Sequence record: MH494197.1
Reading direction: 5' to 3' (one strand)
Length of the DNA: 64,000 bases
From: Escherichia phage CMSTMSU
Shown here: positions 9,830 to 29,132 of the stretch, one piece after another
Position numbering within the stretch: position 1 is the first letter of the stretch
Layout: every line of letters starts with the position of its first letter
Position numbers and translations under genes: made by a program
The notes under the pieces: generated by a model
Database searches by the model: none
What the model was told of the DNA's origin: nothing
What the model saw: the letters and a program-made list of their open reading frames with translations, nothing else

Positions 9830-12800
9830 ATGTACTCGATTAAAACAGATCTAGATATAACTGGTGGTGCAACGGTTGGTAAAGATCTTCTTGTGAAAGG
9901 CGATGCAGTATTCAATAAAAATCTAACAGTTAATGGAACTGTAACTTTTGCTGACGCTGTATTCACTGCAATTGAAGCAGGAACTGTAGACATTTCATCT
10001 ACACTAGATGTTGCTGGTAAAGCATCATTGAATGGTGGAATTGAAGTTCATGGTAATTCCGTAATTGGTAATTTGCCTGTTGGCTCTGATACTGCAACGA
10101 TTAATTCTAATGCACAATTCCAAAGCCCAGTATCAATGGCAGGTAACCTAACACAAACCGCTGGCACTGCTGTACTAAAAGATACCCAAGTGGCATCAAT
10201 GGATGTTCTTGGAACTTCTTCATTTAAAGGTAATATTACTGCTGAAACTGGCACTACCGCAGCATTTGACAAAATAACTGCAACTGATGCAACATTCACA
10301 AACACTGCAACTACTGATATCACATCAACTGGAACTGCAAACTTTAAAGATGTGAATATTTCCGGTACACTAGGTGGAACATTTAGTCTATCTGATGTTA
10401 ATGCAACAACTCTAACTGTTTCTGGTTTAACCAGTCTACAAGGTGGTGTTACATTAGGTTCCAACATTACTGGTGTGAATAGTAGTGCAAACTTCCGTGA
10501 TATTAAAATTGGTTCCAATGCTGCAAACACTAACTACCGTTTGAGCTTTAACTATTCTGCTCCAAGTCTTCGCCCAACTGTAATTCTACAGAACGAAATC
10601 CAATCAGAATTGATGTCTCCAGCTACCCTAAGTGTATTGAAAACTGCATCTTTTGGTGATTCGTCATTATCCACTTTTGGTATTACTGGTAATGGTCTAA
10701 ACAAACTAGATTACCTAACAGTATCTGGTAACTCTGTTCAAGATCCAGCAACTCCACTATTACAAGTAACTTCAGGTAAAACTAAAGTTCATGATTTCGA
10801 AGTAACAGGAACTGCAACTATTCCTAACATTGAAAGTACTGGTACTGCTAATTTTAATAACATCAACGTATCTGGTACACTCGGCGGTACTTTCAGTCTT
10901 GATGATATTGAAGCAAACACTCTAACTGTTTCTGGATTAACTAGCCTTGTTGGTGGTGTAACTTTAGGTGCTGATATTTCCGGTGCTAATAGTACTGCTA
11001 ATTTTAAAGCAGTAAGTTTAGGACAAAACGCAGCCGATGCTAACGTTAAGTATGGTTTTGCTTATTCTGCCCGGTGCTCGTCCAACTGTAATTCTACAAA
11101 ATGAAATTCAGTCTGAACTAGTATCTCCAGCAGTACTAAATGTACAAAAACTGCTACCTTTGGTGATGCATCTCTTGCAACCTATGGTATCACAGGTAAC
11201 GGTCTAAACAAACTAGATTATCTATCTATTACTGGTAATGGTACACAAAGTCCAGCTACCCCACAACTACAAGTAGCTGGTAAATCAGTACTAAATGATG
11301 TTGAATTCACTGGTACTGTAACTGGTCTAACTGTTGATGTGAGTGGACAAGATCTAACTCCTAAATCAGTAGTTGCTGCTGAAGCAATCAAAGGTCAAAC
11401 CCTTGAATCAGTTGGTCAAACCACCGTAGGAACTAACCTACAAGTTGGTGGAACTGCTAATGTTGTTGGTGCACTAACTGGTACTGCTGCTACCTTCACT
11501 GGTGATGTAAGTGCTGCTAAAGGTACTTTCAGTGGTGATGTTAGCGTTACTGGTCAAACTGTAACTGTACGTGATTTAGTAGTAACTGGTACAACTACTG
11601 GTGTAACTGCCCAAGCTGATGTTGATGGTCTTGATATCGCCCCAAATAAAGTTGATGTTACAACAACACTATCTGTTGCTGGGGACACTACTTTAGCTGG
11701 CCTAACTGCTAGTTCAGTAACCAGTACTGGTGATGTTACTGGTGCGTCTGTATCTGGTAATACAGTAACTGCGGCTGGTGCACTATCTGGTGGTTCTCTT
11801 GCAGTAACTGGTGCTGGTTCTATGGCTTCACTAACTGTTCCAAGTATTACTGGTGACACTACTTTTGCTAATAACGTAACTATTACTGGAACACTAACTC
11901 CGAGTAGTATAGATTTAAGCACTACTGATGTAAGTGCTGCTTCTTTAACAACTACTGGTAACGTAACTGTTGGTGGTTCTCTTGCAGTAACTGGTGCTAT
12001 TGATTTGTCTGCTGCTGATGTAGTAACAAAATCAGTTAGTGCAACTAACCCAAGTACATTTGGTGTAATTAATGCATCTTCTGTTGTCGCAACTGGTGAC
12101 GTTTCAGGTGGCACTCTAACTACTACTGGTGCAGCGAAAGTAGGAACACTAACTAGTACTGGTGTAGTATCTGGTTCGCGTTTGTCTTCTGGTACTGCAA
12201 CAATCTCAACTTCTGTAACAGTTCCAACTTTACAAGCTGAAGCTGCTGGTGCTGGTACACTAAATCTAGCAAGTAATGTTGTCGCGGCAAAGATCTAACT
12301 GTCACTGGTGTATTCAAACCTGAAGGTGGTCTTGACCTAACAACTGTTGATATTACTGCAAACTCACTAACTACTACTGCTGATGTTAATGTTGGTGGAA
12401 ACTTAGTAGTTGATGGTACTTTTGACCTAAGTGCTGCTGATGTGTCTGTGAAATCTCTTGCAAGTGCAGAGACAATTACAAGTGCTGGTGTTATTACCGT
12501 TACCGATTCAACCAATACTAGTTCGTTACCTAAAATTACTTCAACTGATGCAACACTCTTTACAGTAAATGCAGGTACTATTAATGCAACTGGCAACAGT
12601 GTACTACAAAGTGTATCAGCTACTCAAGTAACTGCAACTAGTGCTGAATTGACTGGTGTTGGTCTTGGTCTTCAAGTCGATAATGATGCAAACGTTGGTG
12701 GTGCATTATCTGTTGGTGGAATCGCAACTGTTGGTTCTTTAACAACAACTGCTGCTTCTCTTAATATTGCAAAAATACTGCAATCACTGGTGATTTAGCT

Positions 12801-14759
12801 GTATCTGGCACACTAACTGCTGGTTCAATCGACCTAAGCAATACTGATGTAACCGTTAAATCTCTTGATTCACTAGGTAACGCACACATTGCTGGTGACC
12901 TAACTGTAGATGGTGCATTCGACTTAAGTGCAACTAACCTTGTAGCTGCAAGTCTAGCAAGTACTGGTTCTACTACTGTTGGAACTGATCTAGTACTAAC
13001 AACTGGTGTTGTGACTGGTAGCCCAGCTATCTCTGGTAATACAACAATCGGTGGAACTCTTGGTGTAACTGGTGCTGTTAACCTAACTGATATTGTTAAT
13101 ATCGGTAAGAAAGTAACAGTGAGTACTGGTGGTATTCAGGTAGTTGATGGTGGTATCAATACTAACACAATTAACGTTTCTGGTGCTTCTACTCTAGCAG
13201 GAACTTCCATTACTGGAACTTTAGGTGTAACTGGTGCTTCTACTCTAGCAGGTGTATCTGCGACATCACTAACAGTTTCTGGTGACAGTACTGTTCAGAA
13301 ACTAACTGTCCAAGGTGAATTGATCCCACAAGGTGGTCTTGACCTAAGCGGTGCAGACATTACTGCTAATAGTCTAACTACTGCAACAACTATCAATGCA
13401 ACTGGCCTAAGTACTCTAAGTGGTGGTGTTAGTACTTCTACTGTGACTGCATCTGGTCTAGCAACTGTTGGAAGTTTAACTTCTACTGCAAACGCATCAG
13501 TTGGTGGCAATTTGGGTGTAACTGGAACTCTAGATGTTACTGGTGCTACTACTGTATCTTCACTAACAGCTACTGGTGCAGTGAAAACTGGCACAACCCT
13601 AACTGTTGGTACTCCAGTTGGTGAACAACCTGAAACTGTACAGATCATTCCAGATACTTATATTGCTGGTAAATTGCGTGTAATCGGCGGTATTAACGCT
13701 GAAATCGACGTAAGTGGTCAAACACTAGAACCATATGCAATTGAAGCTGCTGCAACACTATCTGCTGTTGGTAACATTACTTCTGGTGCAACCATCGTTT
13801 CTAAAGCTGCAACAATTGGTGATGTTGGTTCACAAAACAACAACCTAACTGTTAATGGTAACGTAGTAACTAATGGTGACTTCACCGTTACTGGTGTACT
13901 AAATGCACAATTGAACCAAGCAGATTCCGATGTAGCTGTTAAATCTTTAACTGCAACTAATAACGTTGCGGCTGGTACTTCAATCACTGCTGGAACATCC
14001 ATCACTGCATCAGGCTTACTAAAAGGTAATTCGTTAGAAGTCACCACTACTGGTTCATTTGGTGGTGCAGTAACTATGTCAAGTGGTGCAAACATCACTG
14101 GTACTGTTGGTATCACTGCTGGTGACCTAACAGTAGGTGGTAATATCTCTGCAACTGGGACTGCTGGATTCGGTGCAACAACCGTTTCTACCATTACAAC
14201 ATCAGGTTTAGCTACACTTGCAAGTGCATCTGTAACTGGTGCTCTAACTGTAGGTGGTACATTAACTGCAAATGGTAACACTGTGATTGGTGATGCTGCT
14301 GCTGATACTTTAACTGTAAATGCAACATCGACATTTAAAGAGAACGCAACATTTGATAAGAACCTAACAGTGACTGGTTCTATTAACACCACCACTGCAA
14401 ACTTCACCACAAACAACATGGTAACTAAGAAATATTCTGTTATCCCTGCTAGTGTTACTGCTTCTACTGCTGCTGTAGGTGGTACTTGGACACCAGATGG
14501 TACTACTAACGTATATCGCTTAACTCTTGACCAAAGTGTTACAATGGATTCCATCGCGGGTCTAATTGGTAGTGGTCAAGCATGTTCAGTGTATATCTAT
14601 GTAACTCCATCTGTTGCTGATACTACTTTCACCTTCGGTGGTGCATACTCTGTAGTTTCTGGTACAGTAAGTGCTGTAGTTGGTCAAACAAGTATTATCC
14701 AAGTAATCTATGATGGTTTCAGTACTGTGTTTGATACCTTCGTTGCACAACGTGTATAA
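9830..14759 (+). CDS. Giant repeat-rich fibre protein A (~1640 aa), reading frame broken at about 11100, 12300 and 12800
   Basis: Track ORFs 9830..11104, 11339..12298, 12442..12798 and 13011..14759 all carry V/T/G/S/A-rich short repeats (xTVxGxxTLxG). RBS GGAGGGA. N- and C-termini are paralogous to fibre B. Confidence 0.6.
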
Positions 14760-14905: not shown

Positions 14906-17900
14906 ATGTACTCGATTAAAACGGATCTTGATGTATCTGGTAATTCCACGGTAGGTAAGGATCTTTTGGTCAAAGGTAATGCAGTATTCAGTAATGACCT
15001 AACGGTTAATGGGGAAGTGTCTTTTGCTAACGCAGTATTCACTGCAATTACCGCTGGTTCTGTGAATGTCACAGGTGCATTGGATGTTGCTGGTAAGGCA
15101 ACCTTATCCGGTGGTGCTGATGTTTCAGGTGCTGCGACATTTGCAGGAAACATTACTGCTGCTGACGGCACAACTGCAAAATTTGATAACTTAGAAGCTA
15201 ATTCAGGATCATTTAATTCTGTTGAATCAACTGATATTACTTCAACTGGCACAGCAACTTTTAAAGATGTAAACATTTCTGGTACACTTGGTGGTACTTT
15301 TAATCTTTCTGATATTAATGCTACAACACTTAATGTGTCTGGTGCTTCAGCACTAACTGGTTCAGTCACATTGGGTGCAAATATCACTGGTCTTGCAAGT
15401 ACTGCAAACTTCCGTGATATTCGTATCGGGCCTAATGAAGAAGGTCAAGCATATAGACTAAACTTTGGTTACACCGTTCGGACAACGACCAACCGTTCTT
15501 CTACAGAACGAAGTTCAATCCGAACTAATGTCTCCTGCTAAGTTGAATGTTCTACAAACTGCAACATTTGGTGATTCTTCACTTTCAACTTACGGTATTA
15601 CAGGTAATGGTTTAAACAAATTAGATTATGTAACTATTTCTGGTAACGCAATTCAATCACCAACCACTCCTTTACTTGAAGTAACTAAAGGTAAAACTAA
15701 AGTTGTTGATTTAGAAGTGACTGGCGTAGCAACTATTCCTAATATCGAAAGTTCTGGTACTGCAAACTTTAACAACATCAACGTATCTGGTACTATTGGT
15801 GGTAGTTTTGATTTAGATGATATCCAAGCAACAACATTATCAGTATCCGGTGCTTCAGCACTAACTGGTGCAGTTACATTGGGTGCAAACATCACTGGTC
15901 TAGCAAGTACTGCAACATTCAAAGCAATCAATTTGGGTCAAAATACCGCTGATGCTAACGTTAAGCTAGGTTTTGCATATACTGCACCTAGTGCACGTCC
16001 AACAGTCTTGTTAGCAAACGAAGTTCAATCTGAACTAATGTCTCCTGCTAAGTTGAACGTTCTACAAACTGCAACCTTCGGTTCTGCTGCACTATCTACC
16101 TATGGTATTACTGGTAATGGTCTAAACAAATTAGATTATCTAACAATTACTGGTAACGCAACACAAAACCCTGCTACTCCACAACTTCAAGTTGGTGGTA
16201 AAGCAATTCTTAATGATGTTGAATTTACAGGTACTGTAACTGGCCTAACTGTTGATGTGAGTGGACAAGATCTAACTCCTAAATCAGTAGTTGCTGCTGA
16301 AGCAATCAAAGGTCAAACTCTTGAATCAGTTGGTCAAACAACTGTAGGTTCATCTCTACAAGTTGGTGGTACTGCAACTGTTACTGGTGCATTATCTGCT
16401 GCCGCTGGTACTTTCAGTGGTGATGTTAGTGGTTCTAAAGGTATCTTCAGTGATAGCGTATCCGGTACAAGTGCAACCTTTACTGGGGATGTTAGCGGTG
16501 ATAACGCAACCTTTAGTGGCGATTTATCTGCTGTAGCTGGCACTTTCAGTGGTGATGTAACCGTAACTGGTCAAACAATCACTGTTAAAGACTTGGTAGT
16601 AACTGGAACTTCAACTGGTGTAACTGCAATCGCTGACGTTGACGGTCTTGATATTGCTCCAAACAAAGTTGATGTTACAACAACTCTATCTGTTGCTGGT
16701 GAATCAACTCTTGCTGGTGTTACAGCAACTTCAATCAATAGTACTGGTGCAATTGCAGGTACTGCAATTTCTGGCTCTACTATTACAGCAACTGGTGAAA
16801 TTTCTGGTGCATCATCTGTAGTAACTGGTCTTTCTAAATCTGGTAGCGTTGAAACTGGTGCTCTAAAGGCATCTTCTGTTGAAACTGCAATCATTAGCAA
16901 CACTGCTGGTGTGTCAATAACAAACAACACTTCAATTGCAGGTAATCTATCTGTAACTGGAACTGTTACCCCGTGCAATTGACCTAAGTACTACTGATAT
17001 TGATGCTAAGTCTCTAACAACTACTGAAGGTGCTAACATTGGTGGTGACCTAGTTGTTGCAGGTACAGTTGATCTAAGTGCTGCTGACGTTGCTGTTAAA
17101 TCTCTAACCAGTACTGGTGCAGTTATTAGTTCTGAAGGTACAGTAAGTAGTGTTCTACCTAAACTTTCCAGTACTGAAGCTAATATTACCACAGTAACTG
17201 CAACCACTGCAAATGCTACCACACTAAATGTAACTGGTACATCAACTCTAGCTGGTGTTAACGCTTCTGGTGCTATTACTTCTGCAACTAACATTACCGC
17301 TACTGGTGTATTAAAGGTGCATCTGTTGAAACTGCGTCAATCAGCAATGCTGATGGTGTAGCAATTAACAATAACACTACAATCACTGGTAATTTGGACG
17401 TATCTGGGACATTGACCCGTGCAATTGACCTAAGTACTACTGATATTAGTTCTAAGTCTCTAACCACAACTGAAGGTGCTACAATTGGTGGCGATCTTGT
17501 GGTAGCAGGTACTGTTGATCTAAGTGCTGCTGATGTGTCGGTGAAATCTCTTGCAAGTGCAGAGACAATTACAAGTGCTGGTGTTATTACAGTTTCGGAT
17601 ACAGTGAATTCTAGCACTCTACCAAAACTAATTACTACTGATGCAACTATTGGTGCTGTCCATGCAGCTACTATTGAAACAACTGGTTCAAGTACACTAA
17701 AACAAGTATCTGCTACTGAAGTAACAGCTACAAGTATTGTACTAAATTCAGTTGGTGAAGGTTTACGTGTTGACAATAATGCAAACATTAATGGTATATT
17801 AAGTGTTAATAATATTACTTCTACCAATGATACTATTGCAATTGCGAAAAGTGCTGCTATTACTGGTGATCTGACCGTATCTGGAACTGTTACCCCGGTG

Positions 17901-20608
17901 CAATTGACCTAAGTACTACCGATATTAGTTCTAAATCCTAAGTACTACTGAAGGTGCTACAATTGGTGGTGACCTAGTTGTTAATGGTTCAATTGATTTA
18001 AGTTCTTCCAATGTTTCAGCAATTACCCTTGCTAGTTCTGGTAATACTACCGTTGGTGGTAACCTAGTACTAACAACTGGTGTTGTGACTGGCAGCCCAT
18101 CTGTATCTGGTAACCTTTCAGTTGCAGGTACTGCGGCAGTAACTGGTGCAACTACCTAACTGATATCGTAAATATCGGTAAGAAAGTAACTGTAAGCACT
18201 GGTGGTATTCAAGTAGTTGCAGGTGGTATTAATACCGACGCTATATTAGTATCCGGTGATACAACTTTAAACAACACTACTGTAAACACTACCTTAAATG
18301 TAACTGGTCAAAGTACAGTTGCTGCACTAAGTGCTGCATCTTTGAATGTATCTGGTGATAGTACTGTTCAAAACTAACAGTTGAAGGTGAATTGGTTCCA
18401 CAAGGTGGTATCGACCTAACTGGTGCAGATATTTCTGCTAATAGTCTTGCAACTGCTTCAACAATCACTGCAACTGGACTAAGCACACTAAGTGGTGGTG
18501 TAAGTACTACTAATGTTACTGCATCTGGTACAGTGAATGCTGGTAGTTTGGATGTTACTAACAACGCAACCGTTGGTGGTAATTTGGGTGTAACTGGTTC
18601 ATTAACTTCTGGACCATTGAGTGTAACAGGCATTGCGAATATTACTGGTGTAACAACTGTTGGTTCATTGGTTTCCGGTGCTGTATCTGGTAGTACTGGT
18701 ACATTTAGTTCAACATTAGGTGTAACTGGTGCAGCTACATTTGACAATGACGTAACTGTTGAAGGTGTATTCACCCCAGCAGGTGGTTTAGACCTAACAA
18801 CTTCTGATATTACAGCTAAGAGTTTGTCAGTATCTGAAACTATTCACTCTGATGGTGCAGCTTCCTTTGGTGGTAACACAACAGTAGGTGGTACATTGGG
18901 TGTAACTGGTGCAGTAACTGCTCCATCGGCAACCCTAAGCGGTACTGGTACTGCACTAGCAGTAACTAATAATGCAACTATTGGTGGTACATTGGGTGTA
19001 ACTGGTCAAGCAACACTTGGTTCTATAGTAACTTCTGGTGTATCTGCAACAAGTGGCTCTTTCAGTACTACTCTTGGCGTTACTGGTGCTGCGACATTTG
19101 GAAACGATGTAACTGTAGTTGGAACACTAACTCCGGTAGCTTAGATCTAACTGGTGCAGATATCTCTGCTAAAACACTAACTCTATCTGAAACATTAAAT
19201 GCGACAGGTAATACTACCCTTGGTGGAACATTAGGTGTAACTGGTTTAGCAACAATTGGTGGAACACTAACGTCTGGTGCAGTAACTGCTCCATCTGCAA
19301 CCTTGAATGGTTCAGGAACTGGTCTAGCAGTAACTAACAACGCAACCGTTGGTGGTACATTAGGTGTAGTTGGTCAAACAACACTAGGTTCTGTTAAAAC
19401 TGGTGCAACTCTAACAGTTGGTACACCATTAGGTGAGCAGCCTGAAACTGTACAGATTATGCCAGACACTTATATTGCTGGTAAACTACGTGTTGAGGGT
19501 GGTATTAACGCAGATATCGATGTTGGTGGACAAACACTAGAACCGTTTGCAGTAATAGCATCTGATTCTTTATCTTCTGCTGGTAATATTACTGCTGGTG
19601 CGGCAATTATTTCAAGTTCTGCAACAATTGGTGAAGTCGGTTCACAAAACAACAACCTAATCGTTAATGGTAACGTTGTAAACAACGGTAACTTCACTGT
19701 TACTGGTGTACTAAATGCACAATTGAACCAAGCAGATTCCGATGTAGCTGTTAAGTCTTTGACTGCAACTAACAACGTAGCTGCTGGAACCACATTAAGT
19801 GCAGGTACTGCAATTACTGCTGGTACTTCCATCACTGCAACTGGATTACTTAAAGGTAATACTTTATTACTACTACTGGTTCATTTGGTGGTGCAGTAAC
19901 TATGTCAAGTGGTGCAAACATCACTGGTACAGTGGGTATTACTGCTGGTAACCTAACAGTGGGTGGTGATATCTCTGCAACTGGCACTGCTGGATTCGGT
20001 GCAACAACCGTTTCTACAATTACAACATCAGGTTTGGCTACACTTGCAAGTACATCCGTTACTGGTAACGCAACAGTAGGTGGAACACTAGCAGTAACAG
20101 GAGCACTAACTGCGAATGGTAACGTAACATTAGGTGACGCAGCGGCTGACGTTCTAACCGTTAATGCAACTTCATCATTTAAAGAAAATGCTGTGTTTGA
20201 TAAGGCAGTAACAGTAACTGGTGAACTAACCACTACTAATGCTAACTTAACTACTACAACAGTAACTACCAAAAGTATGATGTAATCCCAACTCAAGTTA
20301 CATCATCAGTAATTGCTCCAACCGGAACATGGACTCCAGATGGTACAAGTAACGTGTACTTCATCACTCTAGACCAAGATACCACGTTGGCTCCAATTAC
20401 TGGCCTAATTGGTGGCGGTAAAGCTGCATCAGTATACATCTATGTTAAACAAGATACAACTGGTAACAGAAACTTTACAACTGATGGTACTTATGCTGTT
20501 GTTGATGGTGAACTAAACAAAACTGCTGGTAGCGTGACCATTTACCAAGTAATTTATGATGGTGTAAGTCCAGTTACTGATTTGTTCATTGCACAACGTA
20601 CTGCTTAA
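14906..20608 (+). CDS. Giant repeat-rich fibre protein B (~1900 aa), several frame breaks
   Basis: Starts MYSIKTDLDVSG with RBS TAGGAGGGA. Pieces 15465..16982, 17394..17912, 18392..19144, 19303..19899, 19902..20285 and 20354..20608. Shares long near-identical nucleotide blocks with fibre A. Confidence 0.6.
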
Positions 20609-23502: not shown

Positions 23503-23530
23503 AAAAAGGAGACTTATGTCTCCTTTTCTT
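23503..23530. terminator. Bidirectional rho-independent terminator between the fibre gene (+) and thyA (-)
   Basis: GGAGAC-TTAT-GTCTCC flanked by an A-run upstream and a T-run downstream. Confidence 0.6.
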
Positions 23531-24460
23531 TATACAGCCATTGGTGCTTTGATCGTTGGCATTGGATCGTAATTAACTAATTTGAAAGAATCCATAGTGA
23601 AATCTTCAATATCAGTAATAGTAGGATCTAACCATAATTCTGGTAATGTACGTGGTTCACGTTGGAGTTGCTCTTTTACTTGTTCAATATGGTTTTGATA
23701 GATATGGCAGTCGCCACCATTCCAAATAAATTCACCAACATCTAACCCTGTAATTTGTGCAATCATATGAGTTAGTAGTGAGTAACTACTAATATTAAAT
23801 GGCACACCAAGGAATAGATCAGCACTACGTTGATGAAGAATACAACTTAGTTTACCCTGTACAACACAAAACTGCACAAAGCTATGACAGGGTGGCAAAG
23901 TCATAGCATCAAGCTCACCAACGTTCCATGCACTTAGAATGTGACGACGACCATATGGATCAGTATTGATACCTTCAATAACTTGTTTTAGCTGGTCAGT
24001 TACGACGCATAATAACACCATGTGAACCAGTATAATCAATAACTTTATACCCTTTATCTTTTAGTTCTTGAATTTCTTCAGTACTGGAACTGAATTTATA
24101 ATCTTCCCATTCACGCCATTGTTTACCATAAACTGGGCCAAGCTCACCATCAGAATACCCAAGGCTTACACCTTGATTAAGGTAGTTGTCTGTCCAAATT
24201 GTTTTCTTTTCTACATCACGTGTCCCGTGTAAAATTTCACACAGACGACGCTCATCGTGAGAACCTTCAATAAACCATAACAATTCTGAAGTCATTGCTT
24301 TCCAAGCTAAACGTTTAGTAGTTACTGCTGGGAAACCTTCTTTTAGGTCAAAACGCATTTGTTGTCCGATTAGCTTGATAGTGCCAACACCAGTACGATC
24401 AACGCTTTCGACACCTTGATCCAGAATTCTTTGATATAGTTCTTGTAGTTGTTTCATTTT
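23530..24460 (-). CDS. thyA: Thymidylate synthase, split into two overlapping frames near 24000-24040
   Basis: N-terminal piece contains [16 protein letters not shown] and GPVYGKQWR; C-terminal piece contains [29 protein letters not shown] and APMAV. These are the universal ThyA motifs and are collinear with E. coli ThyA. Confidence 0.85.
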
Positions 24461-24461
24461 A

Positions 24462-24820
24462 CGTCCTTGAAAAATGTAATAAAGTGTTCCATGTGTTTTG
24501 TGTAGCATTACGTGAACCAATCCCAGTCCAGTTACCGTGTGGTGCTGGTATTGAGAATGTTTCAGTAAACTCTTTCAGTACTGTATCATAATAAAATACA
24601 GAGCGAGTGTTCATATCATAACAATATATTTCTGGATTGTCAACTGAATCCATATACATCTGTACGGCCCATGCAGTTCCACCTGAAACTTGCGTAGGTG
24701 ATGTAATATTTGCAATACAATATACTCTTTTGTATTAAGTATCTGGTAACTATTCCTTGCAAGTAAGTTATATACATACGAACCGCTTAGGAACTTTACG
24801 GCGTAAAGAGTAACATGCAA
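24462..24820 (-). CDS. Hypothetical small protein(s); two overlapping ORF fragments
   Basis: Track ORFs 24459..24659 and 24611..24820; stop overlaps the thyA start. Confidence 0.25.
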
Positions 24821-25999: not shown

Positions 26000-26029
26000 A
26001 AAAAGTAGAAACGGAATTTTCCGTTCTCA
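26000..26029 (-). terminator. Rho-independent terminator after the VWA gene
   Basis: GAAACGGAA-TTT-TCCGTTCTC with a T-run on the minus transcript. Confidence 0.45.
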
Positions 26030-26033
26030 TTAT

Positions 26034-27447
26034 TTAGTACTTAGCTACGTTGACGCTTTTGTCAGCTTCATATTCGTAGTGTACAGTTTCGCCAAATGGT
26101 GCTTGTTTGTTAGGATTGCTGTGGATAACAAACAGTGTCTTACAGTAATCAGGATCACCCCATGACTGCCACGGCTCACCATCGGTAAACATAATAAGCT
26201 GTTTAGGCTTATAGTTGTCATGCTTCATATGAACCCATACTGCTTCAAAGTCAGTACCACCACCACCTTTCACTGGATATTCGAGAATCTTACTCTCTTC
26301 ACCAGTTTTGTAATCTTTCACAGTATAAACTTCAGTATCGAACGTCATGATACGGATTTTAAATTGTTTAAACTGCTTAGTGATACCCAGTACTTCACTG
26401 ATGAAATCACGGAGCATATCTTCAGAGATAGAACCGGATGCATCTAGTGCAATTGCAATATCAATATCATCATCTGGTTTCATACCGGGAAGATTGGATT
26501 CCCGTAGAATGAACCAGAACTACCAAAACCAGCACCCCATGAACGACGATTAGGATTTTGATAAGTTGCATCAGACTTCAACCAGCTACGCAGTGTGCGG
26601 TGAAGTTTAGAACGCCAGTCAATCTTAGGTTCTTTGAAGTTGTTAATCATACGTGCGATTTCAGCAGGAGTACCACCTGCACGAGCAGCATTCATCATTG
26701 CTGTTTTGAAATCATCCATATAATCACGTTTTTGTTTCTCACTTGAACCACCCTCTTGACCTTCTTGTGGAACGTCATGCTGGTCGATTGTTGTACCTTT
26801 GCCTTTACCATCTTTGATATCACCAAAAGTACCGCGTGATTTACCTTCACCCTCACCACTACCAGCCTGTGGATTTCCTTCACCTTCTCCGTCTTGATCC
26901 TGCTTATCTTCTTCTTCGAGAATATTATAAATCTCTTCAGCAGTCATACCATCGTACTTTTTATCGTACAGCCATTGGCTTTGGATTTTACCAATTTTAT
27001 CACGAACAAGAATCTGGTTAATTGCATAGTCAGCAGCACGGTTATAACGCTGCGGGTCACGCATACCACGACGCAAGAAGTGGTCATATGCACAGTGAAG
27101 AATTTCATGACAAATAACTGCAATCAGGTTTTCATCAGTCAAACCTTCTGTCATTTCTTTAAGTTGTTCTTCAGTTACTTCAGGATGTTTCTCACGAATT
27201 GCTTCTTCGTATGCTGACTTTTGGATTGGTCCTGAATACCCATGATGAATTCTACGTTGTAGAATAAATGCTTACCATCTACAGCCAAAGTACGACACCA
27301 TGTGTTGTTTGCAACTGGACGCAGACGAGAAGCCAGTACACCAAAGAATGGGAATGTTAGCATTAAAGATGTGCGAGCTAAGATCAGACGATCTTGACAT
27401 TCTTTCTGGAGAGCCGGAGTAACATCACTGAAACGTTTATCTGACAT
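26034..27447 (-). CDS. Two-domain protein: N-terminal HExxH zinc-metallopeptidase-like domain plus C-terminal von Willebrand factor A domain (DUF2201-like VWA partner of MoxR ATPases); frame broken twice
   Basis: CHEILHCAYDH (HExxH) in ORF 26480..27154; DIAIALDASGSIS (MIDAS DxSxS) and GGGTDF in ORF 26034..26483; N-terminus in ORF 27175..27447. Confidence 0.7.
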
Positions 27448-27520
27448 TTGTATTTCCTCGTTTAGTTAAGATAAAGAAGGATACCATGTGGTATCCTCCT
27501 TGTCAACACTCTTTTAATTA

Positions 27521-28846
27521 TTAACCAAGAGAGCGTGCTTTACGTACTAGGTCAGAGTACTTCATAACGAAGTCTTTAAACGCTGGTACATCTTTAATCG
27601 TAATCGCTACTTTATGAAGCGTGATGGTACGAATCGCCAGTACTGCCAGTTCTGCTTGAGTTGCAGAGAAGTTATGGTCTAGGAAGGTGATGAAGTTGTT
27701 GCACAGCTTACCCCAATCTTCCACTGGTAGACGTTGTTCTTGCTTCTCATTGTAGAGGTCGATAATTTTGTAAACCAGATTCAGAGTGATGAAGTAGTTC
27801 GCGGAAATATCGAGCGAAGCATCAATCTCTTTAATCTCACCCTGTAGGATGGACATGGTATCTGGTAGTTTAGCTACGTTATCAACATACTCGATGTATT
27901 CAGTTGCTACGCCTTCACCAACACGACCTGCAATCATCGCACGGAACACTTCTTTATCAATGTTCTTAACTTTCTTCAGATCTTCGTAGCGTGCTACTGC
28001 TTCCCATGAACGTGGAGAAGTACCACCACAGTGAGAAGGATCTTGTGGGCTAAGGGTGTTGAAGTGTTTAGCACCAGTGTTGTTGATGAACGCTACAGTT
28101 GCTGGGTTCAAACGCTTGCCAATCGCATAATCGTTAATCCAATCTTGATGATAAGGAATCATTTCGATGTGGGTCATACGGTCACGCAGTGGTGTAGCTA
28201 GAGAGAACGTTACACCGCCATCAGTTTCACGGTTACCTGCTGCGAGAATCAGTGCAGTCTTAGGTAGCTTCATCTCACCAACACAACGGTCGAGGATTAG
28301 CTGATAAGACGCTGCCTGTACAATCGGCATTGCAGAGTTGATTTCGTCAAACAGAATAACACCTTTCCAATCTGGAGACAGTTTCAGTACTTTAGGTGCT
28401 GCCCACACAACTGCTGTTTCAGCGATGTAATCTTGTGCACTAGCCAGTTCAGATTCAATCAGTTGCTTACCATCCATATCAAGGAACACTTTCTCTGGAA
28501 CTGGGATACCACGAAGGTCACTTGGTTCAATCTGAGACAAACGGAAATCGATAAAGTTAGTGTCTTGGTCGATTAGTTTGGCTTCAAACGCTGCCAGTTC
28601 ACGGCGAAGTTGATCAGCATTTTCAGTATCAGCTTCGATTTGTTGTTTCATGAACTCAATTTTGCCACGTTATCTTTACGCAGTGGGTAGTTCTCATCAG
28701 CGTATTGACGTGCGATAGCAGATTTACCGATACGGGCTACCCCAAATCATCAGGCTATCTTGAATCATGTCAGCCAGTGCCATTGCTTCTTTAGCTTTCT
28801 TAGGAGTCAGTTTTACGTTCAGGATATCGTTGTTTTGAGTAGACAT
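27521..28846 (-). CDS. MoxR-family AAA+ ATPase (CobS-like); N-terminus with two frame breaks
   Basis: Walker A GSP-IGKSAIARQYA reconstructed at 28700-28750, PSDLRG, Walker B ILFDEINSAMP and sensor AAGNR in track ORF 27521..28651. ATG at 28846 with RBS AAAGGAAA. Confidence 0.75.
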
Positions 28847-29013
28847 GTATATTTTCCTTTTGTTGGATAAAATCGTTTAGGTTTCTATTATAGCCAATCC
28901 GTGGGCAAAGTAAAGGAACTGTGTTAAAAGAATTTTAACTTATCAGTTCCTTTGTTACTTCATGAATCATCCGTGTATTTAAAAGGCATTTCTCTTTGCC
29001 GTCTTGATGTGTC

Positions 29014-29041
29014 ATTATATCACATCGTTCAGGCTTGTCAA
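29014..29041 (-). promoter_or_regulatory. Consensus sigma70-type promoter (TTGACA-16 nt-TATAAT) reading toward the ATPase gene
   Basis: Reverse complement of 29036..29041 is TTGACA and of 29014..29019 is TATAAT; spacer 16 nt. Confidence 0.55.
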
Positions 29042-29104: not shown

Positions 29105-29132
29105 ATTATAACACATCATTCGGCGTTGTCAA
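29105..29132 (-). promoter_or_regulatory. Second consensus sigma70-type promoter, inside a ~75-bp direct repeat of the first
   Basis: Reverse complement gives TTGACA (29127..29132), a 16-nt spacer and TATAAT (29105..29110). Confidence 0.55.

What the first reader, a model, noticed from the sequence alone, without database searches (positions are those of the whole stretch)
26034..28846. MoxR-type AAA+ ATPase paired with an HExxH-peptidase/VWA protein in a phage early region
The two adjacent minus-strand genes carry Walker A/B plus the PSDLRG motif (ATPase) and CHEILH plus a MIDAS DASGS motif (partner). MoxR-VWA pairs are chaperone/metal-insertion modules in cells (for example CobS/CobT); what such a pair does for a phage is not established. 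Here the VWA partner also has a metallopeptidase-like domain, and the ATPase has a coiled-coil insertion (QIEADTENADQLRRELAAFEAKL) between Walker A and the PSDLRG motif that I do not expect in canonical MoxR. Candidate roles are host takeover, virion maturation or counter-defence.
Basis: partly seen in the sequence, partly recalled or inferred. Interest (0 to 1): 0.7.

Follow-up and report, generated by a model that had tools for sequence, protein, structure and literature searches.

The report
Known phage MoxR–VWA peptidase gene pair
Two adjacent genes of a 121Q/RaK2-type jumbo coliphage encode a MoxR-class AAA+ ATPase and a partner that joins a zinc-peptidase domain to a VWA domain; the pair is real, but it is the already described counterpart of phage N4 gp24/gp25 and its function is still untested.

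Summary
In the window each gene is cut into three reading frames by 1-2-nt deletions. These are sequencing artefacts. The window carries 317 deletions against a 98%-identical phage (99.3% over the two genes), mostly in homopolymers, and has lost all 48 CCWGG sites. Restoring 3 nt per gene gives a 442-aa ATPase identical to that of Ecwhy_1 and a 469-aa partner with one change.

The ATPase is MoxR-class: its closest solved folds are NorQ and CbbQ. The partner is Pfam DUF2201_N (invariant HExxHxxxxH) plus a VWA-like domain with a complete MIDAS.

The pair is widespread. About 720-810 of 50,697 phage records hold each protein. It includes N4 gp24/gp25, which are core genes of N4-like phages. Iyer et al. 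(2021) described it for exactly this jumbo-phage group and proposed a virion-assembly role.

Three things were not in the finding:
- The only two perfect sigma-70 promoters in 64 kb sit in tandem upstream of the ATPase gene.
- A terminator-like hairpin between the two genes is conserved in four genera.
- In about 11 other phage lineages sampled the pair sits in or beside replication or nucleotide-metabolism modules.

This context fits pre-late expression better than virion assembly. The client and the biological role remain unknown.

Verdict: real, ordinary and already known, with moderate residual interest.

The parts
29105..29132 (-). Distal promoter-like site: TTGACA-16 nt-TATAAT (12/12, with TG extended -10) and an A/T-rich upstream tract
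   Evidence: One of only two perfect matches in 64 kb (0.21 expected). Conserved in Ecwhy_1 and A4.
29014..29041 (-). Proximal promoter-like site: TTGACA-16 nt-TATAAT (12/12, with TG), about 170 nt upstream of the ATPase ATG
   Evidence: A perfect site at the equivalent place in Alcyoneusvirus KP13-7; weaker extended -10 sites in GAP32 and pEa_SNUABM_50.
28847..29013 (-). 5' leader of the ATPase gene. Folds better than shuffled sequence.
   Evidence: -30.9 kcal/mol, z = -3.07. Function not examined.
27521..28846 (-). MoxR-class AAA+ ATPase gene, 442 aa when repaired. Broken in the window by deletions at 28733 (2 nt) and 28659 (1 nt).
   Evidence: PHROG 1297 E=3e-105. AlphaFold pLDDT 89. Foldseek top hits are NorQ and CbbQ.
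28720..28741 (-). Walker A, G-S-P-[G]-I-G-K-S. The Gly codon is destroyed by the 2-nt deletion at a CCWGG site.
   Evidence: G36, G39, K42 and S43 are invariant in 45 homologs.
28556..28651 (-). Clade-specific helical-hairpin ('coiled-coil') insertion between helix alpha1 and strand beta2
   Evidence: Absent from homologs P0099-P0120. Helices 61-73 and 75-91, pLDDT about 95.
28496..28546 (-). DFRLSQIEPSDLRGIP motif (strand beta2 and the start of the helix-2 insert)
   Evidence: D101, R103, L104, P109, D111, R113, G114 and P116 are invariant.
28394..28495 (-). Enlarged beta-hairpin at the helix-2-insert position; a second clade-specific insertion
   Evidence: gap in short homologs. (strands 115-124 and 141-150).
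28337..28363 (-). Walker B (VILFDE)
   Evidence: D168 and E169 invariant.
28004..28252 (-). Sensor 1 (AAGNRE, N206), Arg finger (PLRDRMTH, R224) and sensor 2 (SPRSW, R280)
   Evidence: Invariant columns; coordinates.
27474..27501 (-). Intercistronic 12-bp hairpin followed by a U-rich tract; a terminator or attenuator candidate
   Evidence: -21.3 kcal/mol, z = -4.8. Same position in A4 and KP13-7. Canonical GC-stem/U-tract terminators in GAP32 and pEa_SNUABM_50.
26034..27447 (-). Partner gene, 469 aa when repaired: N-terminal zincin-like DUF2201_N, an acidic/Gly-rich linker, a helical region and a C-terminal VWA. Broken at 27218 and 26486; the C-terminus is altered by a deletion at 26056 (corrected stop near 26041).
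   Evidence: PHROG 1314 E=2e-127. AlphaFold pLDDT 76.
27080..27118 (-). Zinc site candidate HEILHCAYDH (HExxHxxxxH)
   Evidence: H114, H118 and H123 invariant and E115 present in 11 of 12 phage lineages. Invariant in 44 closer homologs.
27014..27043 (-). NRAADYAINQ helix with an invariant Asp and Asn; a possible further ligand or active-site helix
26741..26917 (-). Low-complexity acidic/Gly-rich linker containing the conserved (I/L)DxH motif (TIDQHD, 26774-26791)
   Evidence: pLDDT below 50 over residues 193-221. D227 and H229 invariant.
26169..26453 (-). VWA domain with a complete MIDAS: DASGS (26424-26453), GGGGT (26247-26267) and FTDG (26169-26195)
26009..26026 (-). Terminator-like hairpin plus T-run immediately after the partner stop codon

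Best explanation
This is the RaK2/121Q-lineage version of the phage N4 gp24-gp25 module. It is a two-gene unit with its own host-type (sigma-70) promoters.

Gene 1 encodes a MoxR-class AAA+ ATPase, presumably a hexamer. Gene 2 encodes its adaptor. The adaptor's C-terminal VWA domain docks on the ATPase ring and uses its MIDAS metal site to hold an acidic residue of a client protein. Its N-terminal HExxHxxxxH zinc-peptidase domain cleaves the client or the adaptor itself. ATP hydrolysis pulls or twists the adaptor, as shown for NorQ-NorD, and so remodels or presents the client.

The conserved hairpin between the genes would give more ATPase than adaptor, which fits many motor subunits per adaptor.

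The module is most likely made before the late genes. It most likely acts on a phage or host protein during the replication and nucleotide-metabolism stage. The client is unknown.

Shown here: gene integrity after repair, domain identities, motif conservation, promoter-like and hairpin sequences, pairing, and neighbourhoods. Inferred: hexamer formation, docking, proteolysis, timing and client class.
For: Identity:
- ATPase fold nearest to NorQ and CbbQ. All AAA+ catalytic motifs are invariant.
- Family members hit AAA_5, AAA_3 and bpMoxR.
- Partner is DUF2201_N plus DUF2201. The VWA fold is confirmed.
- HExxHxxxxH and the full MIDAS are invariant across 12 lineages at 25-45% identity.
- Strong purifying selection, dN/dS 0.06-0.11.

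Obligate pairing:
- Near-identical taxon counts for the two proteins in 808 and 724 phage records.
- The ATPase lies upstream on the same strand in 21 of 22 loci from bacterial assemblies.
- The two genes are adjacent in metagenomic phages at about 32% identity.
- N4 gp25 is a prototypic member: DUF2201_N E=3e-87.

Mechanistic analogy: in NorQ-NorD a VWA finger sits in the pore of the hexamer and ATPase activity remodels a NorD linker (PMC13036017, abstract).

Timing:
- The only two perfect sigma-70 sites in 64 kb lie in tandem upstream and are conserved.
- N4 gp24/gp25 are reported as middle transcripts (PMC4193335).

Neighbourhoods outside the RaK2-like group are in or beside replication or nucleotide-metabolism modules:
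- N4 (dCTP deaminase, ThyX, rIIA/B, helicase, DNA polymerase) and LUZ7 (helicase, DNA polymerase)
- rV5-like and PVP-SE1
- Atu_ph07
- RHph_TM27B
- a Brucella prophage
- two metagenomic phages

The hairpin between the cistrons is conserved in four genera.
Against: - No experiment on any member of the phage family was found.
- Promoter and terminator calls are consensus matches only.
- In this phage group the pair directly follows tail and virion structural genes.
- The ATPase ortholog was detected in purified phAPEC6 virions: gp265c, 6 peptides, 19% coverage (PMC7247149).
- Cyanophage S-TIM66 also has structural genes nearby.
- Atu_ph07 has HQxxH, so catalysis may be dispensable in some lineages.
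- No complex model could be made.
Confidence: 0.5

Rival explanations
1. Virion-assembly chaperone and protease. The MoxR-VWA pair folds, assembles and proteolytically processes structural proteins (tail, neck or fibres). Iyer et al. 2021 proposed this by analogy with ATV p618/p892.
For: - The proposal was made for this phage group (PMC7824862).
- ATV p618/p892 interact, and p618 is a virion component implicated in tail development (PMC4124505, citing Scheele 2011).
- Here and in three sister genera the pair directly follows a structural-gene block.
- phAPEC6 virion mass spectrometry detected the ATPase (PMC7247149).
- In N4-like roseophages a 'second structural module' lies near the gp24/gp25 homologs (PMC4193335).
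Against: - The pair has its own perfect sigma-70 promoters rather than continuity with the structural operon.
- In about 9 other lineages no structural genes are nearby and the neighbours are replication or nucleotide-metabolism genes.
- The partner was not listed among phAPEC6 virion proteins.
- The same list contains thymidylate synthase and PhoH, which suggests carry-over of abundant non-structural proteins.
Confidence: 0.3
2. Host take-over or counter-defence protease. The ATPase-adaptor pair captures a host protein, such as a defence or stress factor, early in infection and cleaves or inactivates it.
For: - Strong sigma-70 promoters.
- In rV5-like phages and PVP-SE1 the partner sits beside an anti-sigma-factor homolog and the ATPase sits near rIIA/rIIB.
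- The peptidase active-site residues are conserved.
Against: - The pair is a vertically conserved core gene set. It is among the 14 core genes of N4-like phages (PMC4193335) and is syntenic across four jumbo genera. Typical anti-defence genes are patchy and fast-evolving.
- dN/dS is 0.06-0.11.
- The same module occurs in phages of Proteobacteria, Cyanobacteria and Bacillus, which argues for a target shared by all of them.
Confidence: 0.13
3. CobS/CobT-like or BchI/BchD-like chelatase: a metabolic gene pair that inserts a metal into a tetrapyrrole or enzyme cofactor.
Against: - No CobT, CobS or Mg-chelatase Pfam family passes its threshold. Mg_chelatase scores 16.3 bits against a cut-off of 20.3, over the P-loop only.
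- The partner is DUF2201 with a peptidase domain.
- No third (CobN/BchH-like) subunit gene lies nearby.
Confidence: 0.03
4. The frameshifts are real: both genes are decaying pseudogenes in this phage isolate.
For: Each gene is split into three frames in the window.
Against: - Indels occur about once per 190 nt across the whole window. They are 94% deletions, concentrated in homopolymers, and have removed all 48 CCWGG sites.
- Essential genes such as the tail fibres and thyA are equally broken.
- The repaired proteins are 100% and 99.8% identical to Ecwhy_1.
Confidence: 0.02

Closest known systems
Phage N4 gp24 (AAA ATPase) and gp25 (vWFA protein): core genes of N4-like phages (Schitoviridae)
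   Same: Same two families. N4 gp25 is DUF2201_N E=3e-87 plus DUF2201 E=1e-46, and gp24 is AAA/AAA_5-like. LUZ7 'gp24-like' and 'gp25-like' are hit by tblastn at E=7e-16 and 2e-24. Same order (ATPase then partner) and same strand, with a thymidylate synthase a few genes downstream.
   Different: Only about 25-30% identity. The N4 proteins are shorter (352 and 380 aa). They lack the helical-hairpin and enlarged beta-hairpin insertions of the ATPase and the about 30-aa insertion and long acidic linker of the partner. N4 has ThyX where this phage has ThyA.
MoxR AAA+ / vWA pair with an N-terminal metallopeptidase in group 2.2 jumbo phages (Iyer, Anantharaman, Krishnan, Burroughs, Aravind 2021, Viruses 13:63)
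   Same: This is the same gene pair. The paper cites a protein with an Ecwhy_1-series accession (QAY00453.1) as a group 2.2 example. The Atu_ph07 pair, likely the paper's ASV44729/ASV44728 example (accession mapping not checked), is homologous at 31% identity, E=1e-44.
   Different: The paper proposes a virion-assembly role from the ATV analogy. The promoters, the intercistronic hairpin and the cross-lineage neighbourhoods reported here were not part of that description and point to pre-late expression.
NorQ-NorD (and CbbQ-CbbO): the CGN subfamily of MoxR
   Different: 12-15% sequence identity. NorQ is about 256 aa and lacks the about 150-aa C-terminal helical domain and the two insertions. 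NorD has no peptidase domain. The client is a respiratory metalloenzyme.
Acidianus two-tailed virus p618 (MoxR) and p892 (VWA)
   Same: A virus-encoded MoxR ATPase with an interacting VWA protein that stimulates its ATPase (PMC4124505).
   Different: An archaeal virus with no peptidase domain on the VWA partner. p618 is modelled on RavA. No homology to the present proteins beyond the family level was tested here.
RavA-ViaA of E. coli
   Same: A MoxR ATPase plus VWA cofactor encoded in one operon (PMC3893208).
   Different: RavA has a LARA domain and binds LdcI. ViaA has no zincin domain. RavA was not among the top structural matches.
CobS/CobT and BchI/BchD chelatases
   Same: An AAA+ motor with a VWA/MIDAS partner.
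   Different: The family profiles are not matched, there is no third subunit, and the partner carries a peptidase domain.

Membership tests
MoxR-class AAA+ ATPases | Walker A GxxGxGK[ST] and Walker B hhhhDE | tested here: met
   GSPGIGKS (after repair of the 2-nt deletion) and VILFDE. Invariant in 45 homologs.
MoxR-class AAA+ ATPases | Sensor 1 Asn, Arg finger in an xLxDR motif, and sensor 2 in a SPR motif | tested here: met
   AAGNRE (N206), PLRDRM (R224) and TSPRSW (R280) are all invariant. That these are the MoxR-typical forms is from my own knowledge of the family.
MoxR-class AAA+ ATPases | Helix-2 insert and pre-sensor-1 beta-hairpin (AAA+ clade 7 topology) | tested here: inconclusive
   The AlphaFold secondary structure shows a long hairpin (115-124 / 141-150) after beta2 and short strands before beta4. 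I could not inspect coordinates.
MoxR-class AAA+ ATPases | Match to the curated profiles (Pfam AAA_3 / AAA_5) above the gathering score | tested here: not met
   AAA_3 17.9 bits against 27; AAA_5 15.5 against 22; only generic AAA at 21.5 against 21.2. Shorter family members do match AAA_5 (16/45), AAA_3 (12/45) and bpMoxR (9/45) at E<=1e-3. The two insertions probably break the profile alignment.
MoxR-class AAA+ ATPases | Closest solved structures are MoxR proteins | tested here: met
   NorQ (9qh4, 9qhd and others) and CbbQ2 (6l1q) rank at the top, E 3e-7 to 1e-6.
MoxR-class AAA+ ATPases | Genomic coupling to a VWA-domain partner | tested here: met
   Adjacent here. Co-occurring in about 720-810 phage records and in 21 of 22 loci from bacterial assemblies.
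MoxR-class AAA+ ATPases | Hexamer formation and ATPase activity | not testable with these tools
   Needs purified protein.
VWA domain with MIDAS | DxSxS ... T ... D metal-ion-dependent adhesion site | tested here: met
   D336-A-S338-G-S340, T399 and D423 are invariant across 12 lineages.
VWA domain with MIDAS | VWA (Rossmann-like alpha/beta) fold | tested here: met
Zincin-like metallopeptidase (Pfam DUF2201_N) | Profile match above threshold | tested here: met
   125.8 bits against a cut-off of 23.2, E=3e-36.
Zincin-like metallopeptidase (Pfam DUF2201_N) | HExxH plus a third zinc ligand | tested here: inconclusive
   HExxH is invariant. Candidate third ligands H123 (HExxHxxxxH) and D140 are also invariant. 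Which one binds zinc cannot be decided without coordinates or experiment.
Zincin-like metallopeptidase (Pfam DUF2201_N) | Zincin fold, and peptidase activity | tested here: inconclusive
N4 gp24/gp25-type phage module (PHROG 1297 + PHROG 1314) | Both proteins match the family profiles over their full length | tested here: met
   PHROG 1297 E=3e-105 (profile positions 5-355 of 356). PHROG 1314 E=2e-127 (positions 4-392 of 394). N4 gp25 has the same Pfam architecture.
N4 gp24/gp25-type phage module (PHROG 1297 + PHROG 1314) | ATPase gene upstream of the partner gene on the same strand | tested here: met
   True here and in N4, LUZ7, CR8, Atu_ph07, S-TIM66, RHph_TM27B, PAC2 and the metagenomic phages. 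The exception is rV5-like phages and PVP-SE1, where the genes are divergent and about 4 kb apart.
CobS/CobT cobaltochelatase | CobS- and CobT-family profile matches and a CobN partner | tested here: not met
   No such Pfam or NCBIfam hits. No CobN-like gene in the window's annotated counterpart.
vWA-MoxR ternary conflict systems (Kaur et al. 2020) | A third component (VMAP, beta-propeller or FtsH-like) and effector domains | tested here: not met
   Neighbours are small ORFs, a DprA-like gene, thyA and structural genes. No PADLOC hit. bpMoxR matches only distant short relatives.
HNH endonuclease (the label carried by PHROG 1314 and many GenBank records) | HNH/His-Me finger domain | tested here: not met
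   No HNH Pfam family matched; the protein is fully accounted for by DUF2201_N plus DUF2201. The label is an annotation error.

The most novel reading that the evidence does not exclude
The N4 gp24/gp25-type MoxR-VWA-zincin module may not be a virion-assembly chaperone. It may be a pre-late remodeller and protease tied to the phage replication and dNTP-supply machinery.

Three observations fit this reading:
- It is driven by strong host-type promoters.
- In most lineages sampled it sits in or beside replication or nucleotide-metabolism modules.
- In three unrelated lineages it lies 1.5-2.5 kb upstream of a thymidylate synthase. That enzyme is the non-homologous ThyA type here and the ThyX type in N4 and cyanophage S-TIM66. 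Such a pattern hints at functional rather than merely inherited linkage.

The conserved terminator between the cistrons would set a motor-to-adaptor excess.
Probability: 0.3. Interest if true: 0.55.

Novelty: already known. Interest (0 to 1): 0.3.

Why it matters
The module is one of the few genes conserved across all N4-like phages. It is also shared with rV5-like phages, many jumbo phages, cyanophages and prophages, and is present in roughly 1.5% of deposited phage genomes. Despite this, no experiment addresses it.

A widely conserved ATP-driven adaptor-protease of unknown client is a worthwhile target for phage functional genomics. The contrast between the published virion-assembly proposal and the pre-late, replication-linked context seen here gives a clear, testable question.

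For this window specifically, the finding is ordinary. The more practical lesson is that the sequence is an unpolished assembly whose frameshifts must not be read as biology.

Tried and rejected
- PADLOC and NCBIfam scans of both proteins gave nothing relevant.
- Single-sequence searches of PDB gave nothing.
- A profile search with the peptidase domain gave only a marginal selecase hit, E=0.13.
- Literature searches for DUF2201 and for CRISPRi-ART were uninformative; CRISPRi-ART does not mention these genes. A search for RaK2 virion proteomes gave nothing beyond the phAPEC6 table.
- The T4-type late promoter core TATAAATA has no occurrence in the window, so it cannot be used to class the genes.
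- Rfam found no RNA family in the window.
- The pseudogene reading, the CobS/CobT reading, the HNH-endonuclease annotation and the ternary conflict-system reading were considered and rejected for the reasons given under rivals and membership.
Full report
**What the window is.** The region is 99.3% identical over 2.9 kb to several 350-380-kb Escherichia jumbo phages of the genus Asteriusvirus (Ecwhy_1, WPEC3, EC.P1 and others). It is about 87% identical to 121Q, phAPEC6 and relatives. In these genomes the region carries two intact minus-strand genes, annotated 'ATPase' and 'Zn-dependent hydrolase', 'VWA domain-containing protein' or, wrongly, 'HNH endonuclease'.

**Checking the observation.** Neither gene is a single ORF in the window.
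- The ATPase reads MSTQ...IWGSP in one frame, IGKSAIARQ...NVAK in a second, and MKQQIEADTE... to the stop at 27521 in the first again.
- The partner is split into ORFs 27175-27447, 26480-27154 and 26034-26483. HExxH and the MIDAS therefore sit in different ORFs.

Alignment with Ecwhy_1 places the breaks at single deletions: T5->T4 at 28659, 27218 and 26056, and CCAGGG->C(C)GGG at 28733 and 26486.

Over the whole window there are 336 indel events against Ecwhy_1, of which 317 are deletions. 168 lie in homopolymers of four or more bases and 43 lie at CCWGG. The window contains no CCWGG site at all, against 48 in the homologous Ecwhy_1 stretch. Tail-fibre genes and thyA are fragmented in the same way. 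This is the signature of an unpolished long-read assembly of Dcm-type methylated DNA. That attribution is my inference from general knowledge.

Filling three bases per gene yields a 442-aa ATPase identical to that of Ecwhy_1 and a 469-aa partner with one substitution. Between Ecwhy_1 and phage A4, dN/dS is 0.11 and 0.06. The genes are real and under purifying selection, and the frameshifts are artefacts.

**The ATPase.**
- Pfam gives only a borderline generic AAA hit (21.5 bits against a cut-off of 21.2). AAA_3 and AAA_5 fall below threshold.
- PHROG 1297 'ATPase' matches end to end, E=3e-105.
- An alignment of 45 homologs shows Walker A, Walker B, sensor 1, the Arg finger, sensor 2 and the D-x-R-L-x(4)-P-x-D-x-R-G-x-P motif to be invariant.
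- The AlphaFold model is confident, pLDDT 89. Its best matches among solved structures are the MoxR proteins NorQ and CbbQ2, E about 3e-7 and TM 0.63 on the target.
- Shorter family members hit AAA_5, AAA_3 and bpMoxR.

Residues about 55-95 form a helical hairpin between alpha1 and beta2. It is present in all relatives down to about 37% identity and absent from the 370-400-aa relatives. A second clade-specific insertion lengthens the beta-hairpin that follows the PSDLRG motif.

**The partner.**
- Pfam DUF2201_N ('putative metallopeptidase') matches at E=3e-36 and DUF2201 (VWA-like) at E=1e-21. PHROG 1314 matches at E=2e-127 and carries a mistaken 'HNH endonuclease' label.
- Across twelve phage lineages at 25-45% identity the motif HExxHxxxxH, an Asp in AADYAIN and the full MIDAS (DxSxS, T, D) are invariant. 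The one exception is that Atu_ph07 has Gln in place of the catalytic Glu.
- A disordered acidic/Gly-rich linker holds a conserved (I/L)DxH motif.
- The zincin fold itself could not be verified against solved structures.

**Distribution and prior knowledge.** tblastn finds the ATPase in 808 and the partner in 724 of 50,697 phage records, with near-identical taxon counts. These include:
- N4-like podoviruses, where LUZ7 annotates them as 'N4 gp24-like' and 'N4 gp25-like'
- rV5-like phages and PVP-SE1-like myoviruses
- other jumbo phages (PAC2, Atu_ph07, Bacillus phage G)
- cyanophage S-TIM66

N4 gp25 is a textbook DUF2201_N plus DUF2201 protein. gp24 and gp25 are among the 14 core genes of N4-like phages and are reported as middle transcripts (PMC4193335; also PMC2784036).

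Iyer et al. [quoted passage not shown] They cite a protein with an Ecwhy_1-series accession (QAY00453.1) as a member of that group. They propose a role in virion assembly by analogy with ATV p618/p892. The architecture is therefore already known. No experimental work on the phage family was found.

**Anatomy beyond the finding.**
- Upstream of the ATPase lies a 316-nt spacer with two tandem perfect sigma-70 sites (TTGACA-16-TATAAT with a TG extension). These are the only two in the 64-kb window, against 0.21 expected.
- Both sites are conserved in Ecwhy_1 and A4, and one is conserved in the Klebsiella genus Alcyoneusvirus. Weaker extended -10 sites stand at the same place in GAP32 and an Erwinia phage.
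- Between the two genes a 12-bp hairpin followed by a U-rich tract (27474-27501; z = -4.8) is conserved in position across four genera. It takes the form of a canonical GC-rich terminator in GAP32 and pEa_SNUABM_50.
- A terminator-like hairpin follows the partner stop.
- The order 'structural block - spacer - ATPase - partner - small ORFs - DprA-like gene - thyA' holds in all four genera.

**Neighbourhoods elsewhere.**
- N4: gp24, gp25, dCTP deaminase, ThyX (gp30), rIIA/B, helicase, DNA polymerase.
- LUZ7: the pair lies directly upstream of the helicase and polymerase.
- rV5-like MaxTheCat and PVP-SE1: the partner sits beside an anti-sigma-factor homolog. The ATPase sits beside rIIA/B and helicase, or thymidylate kinase.
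- Atu_ph07: among DNA polymerase I, glutaredoxin, RNA ligase and Nudix genes.
- RHph_TM27B: upstream of DNA polymerase I.
- Two metagenomic phages: beside a 5'-3' exonuclease, glutaredoxin, macro domain and metallophosphatase.
- A Brucella pecoris prophage: beside a ligase, sliding clamp and methyltransferase.
- In 21 of 22 loci from bacterial assemblies the ATPase lies upstream on the same strand.
- Only the RaK2-like group and S-TIM66 have structural genes close by.
- CR8, PAC2 and Bacillus phage G were also sampled. Their neighbours are almost all unnamed hypothetical ORFs, so they add little.

**How it most likely works.** By homology and by analogy with NorQ-NorD, the ATPase is expected to form a ring that engages the partner's VWA domain. 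In NorQ-NorD a VWA finger enters the pore of the hexamer and ATPase activity remodels a NorD linker (PMC13036017, abstract). The MIDAS would bind an acidic residue of a client. The zincin domain would cleave the client or the adaptor's own linker. The internal hairpin would give an excess of motor over adaptor.

The promoters, N4's middle-gene timing and the neighbourhoods favour action before late morphogenesis. The virion-assembly proposal keeps substantial weight for two reasons. The pair abuts the tail and virion genes in this lineage. The ATPase ortholog (gp265c) was also found in phAPEC6 virion preparations, although thymidylate synthase and PhoH were found there too and the partner was not (PMC7247149). 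A host-directed protease role is possible but fits poorly with the core-gene status and strong purifying selection.

**Verdict.** The domain interpretation is right. The claim of novelty is not. The biological function remains open, and the context assembled here gives a specific alternative to the published hypothesis.

Noticed in passing
window 1-64000: The window is an error-rich assembly. Against Ecwhy_1 it has 317 deletions and 19 insertions. 168 deletions lie in homopolymers of 4 or more bases. Every one of the 48 CCWGG sites of the relative is lost, and the window has none. This suggests uncorrected long-read basecalling on Dcm-type 5mC-methylated DNA. All long ORFs are fragmented.
   Followed up: yes
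window 27474-27501 (-); L002, L005, L006, L007 at the same spacer: A stable hairpin with a U-rich tail lies between the ATPase and partner genes. It is conserved in position across four genera and is a canonical intrinsic terminator in GAP32 and pEa_SNUABM_50. It may be an attenuator that sets the motor-to-adaptor ratio.
   Followed up: partly
window 29014-29041 and 29105-29132 (-): The only two perfect TTGACA-N16-TATAAT sites in 64 kb stand in tandem, 91 nt apart. They share the sequence GATGTGnTATAATGAC and A-rich upstream tracts.
   Followed up: partly
window 23530-24520 (thyA) relative to 26034-28846; L039 (N4); L037 (S-TIM66): A thymidylate synthase lies 1.5-2.5 kb downstream of the pair in three unrelated lineages, and it is of non-homologous types: ThyA here, ThyX in N4 (gp30) and S-TIM66. 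N4 also has dCTP deaminase directly after gp25, and PVP-SE1 has thymidylate kinase nearby. My rough estimate is about 0.5 such co-locations expected by chance against 3 seen. This is suggestive only.
   Followed up: partly
window 23530-24039 and 23996-24520 (-): thyA is split into two overlapping ORFs by the same kind of indel.
   Followed up: partly
window, both strands: The T4 late-promoter core TATAAATA does not occur at all, against 7.3 +/- 2.5 expected from shuffles.
   Followed up: no
PHROG 1314 and GenBank records of N4 gp25, Atu_ph07 gp263, PVP-SE1 gp216 and many others: The partner family is widely mislabelled 'HNH endonuclease'. No HNH domain is detectable; the protein is DUF2201_N plus DUF2201.
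   Followed up: yes
L010 5944-7233 (Atu_ph07 gp263): The catalytic Glu of HExxH is Gln (HQILH) in Atu_ph07, while all zinc-ligand candidates and the MIDAS are kept. The peptidase may be inactive there.
   Followed up: no
Ecwhy_1 L001 6445-7041 (-), which by offset is about window 24.5-25.0 kb (not mapped; the ORFs there are fragmented): The gene between the small ORFs and thyA matches PHROG 768 'DprA-like DNA recombination-mediator protein' (E=5e-27). It has no Pfam hit.
   Followed up: partly
window 28847-29010 (-): The 5' leader of the ATPase gene folds more stably than shuffled sequence (z = -3.07) and includes a long hairpin at about 28905-28950. No Rfam family matches.
   Followed up: no
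window about 10300-11540, 13560-14600, 15230-16450 and 19380-20090 (+): The two very long tail-fibre genes share paralogous segments at 77-83% nucleotide identity, seen as secondary BLAST alignments.
   Followed up: no
partner residues about 70-100 (window about 27150-27240): A roughly 30-residue insertion between the beta-sheet and the HExxH helix is shared by RaK2-like jumbo phages and by rV5-like, PVP-SE1 and CR8 phages. It is absent from N4-like and other lineages.
   Followed up: no
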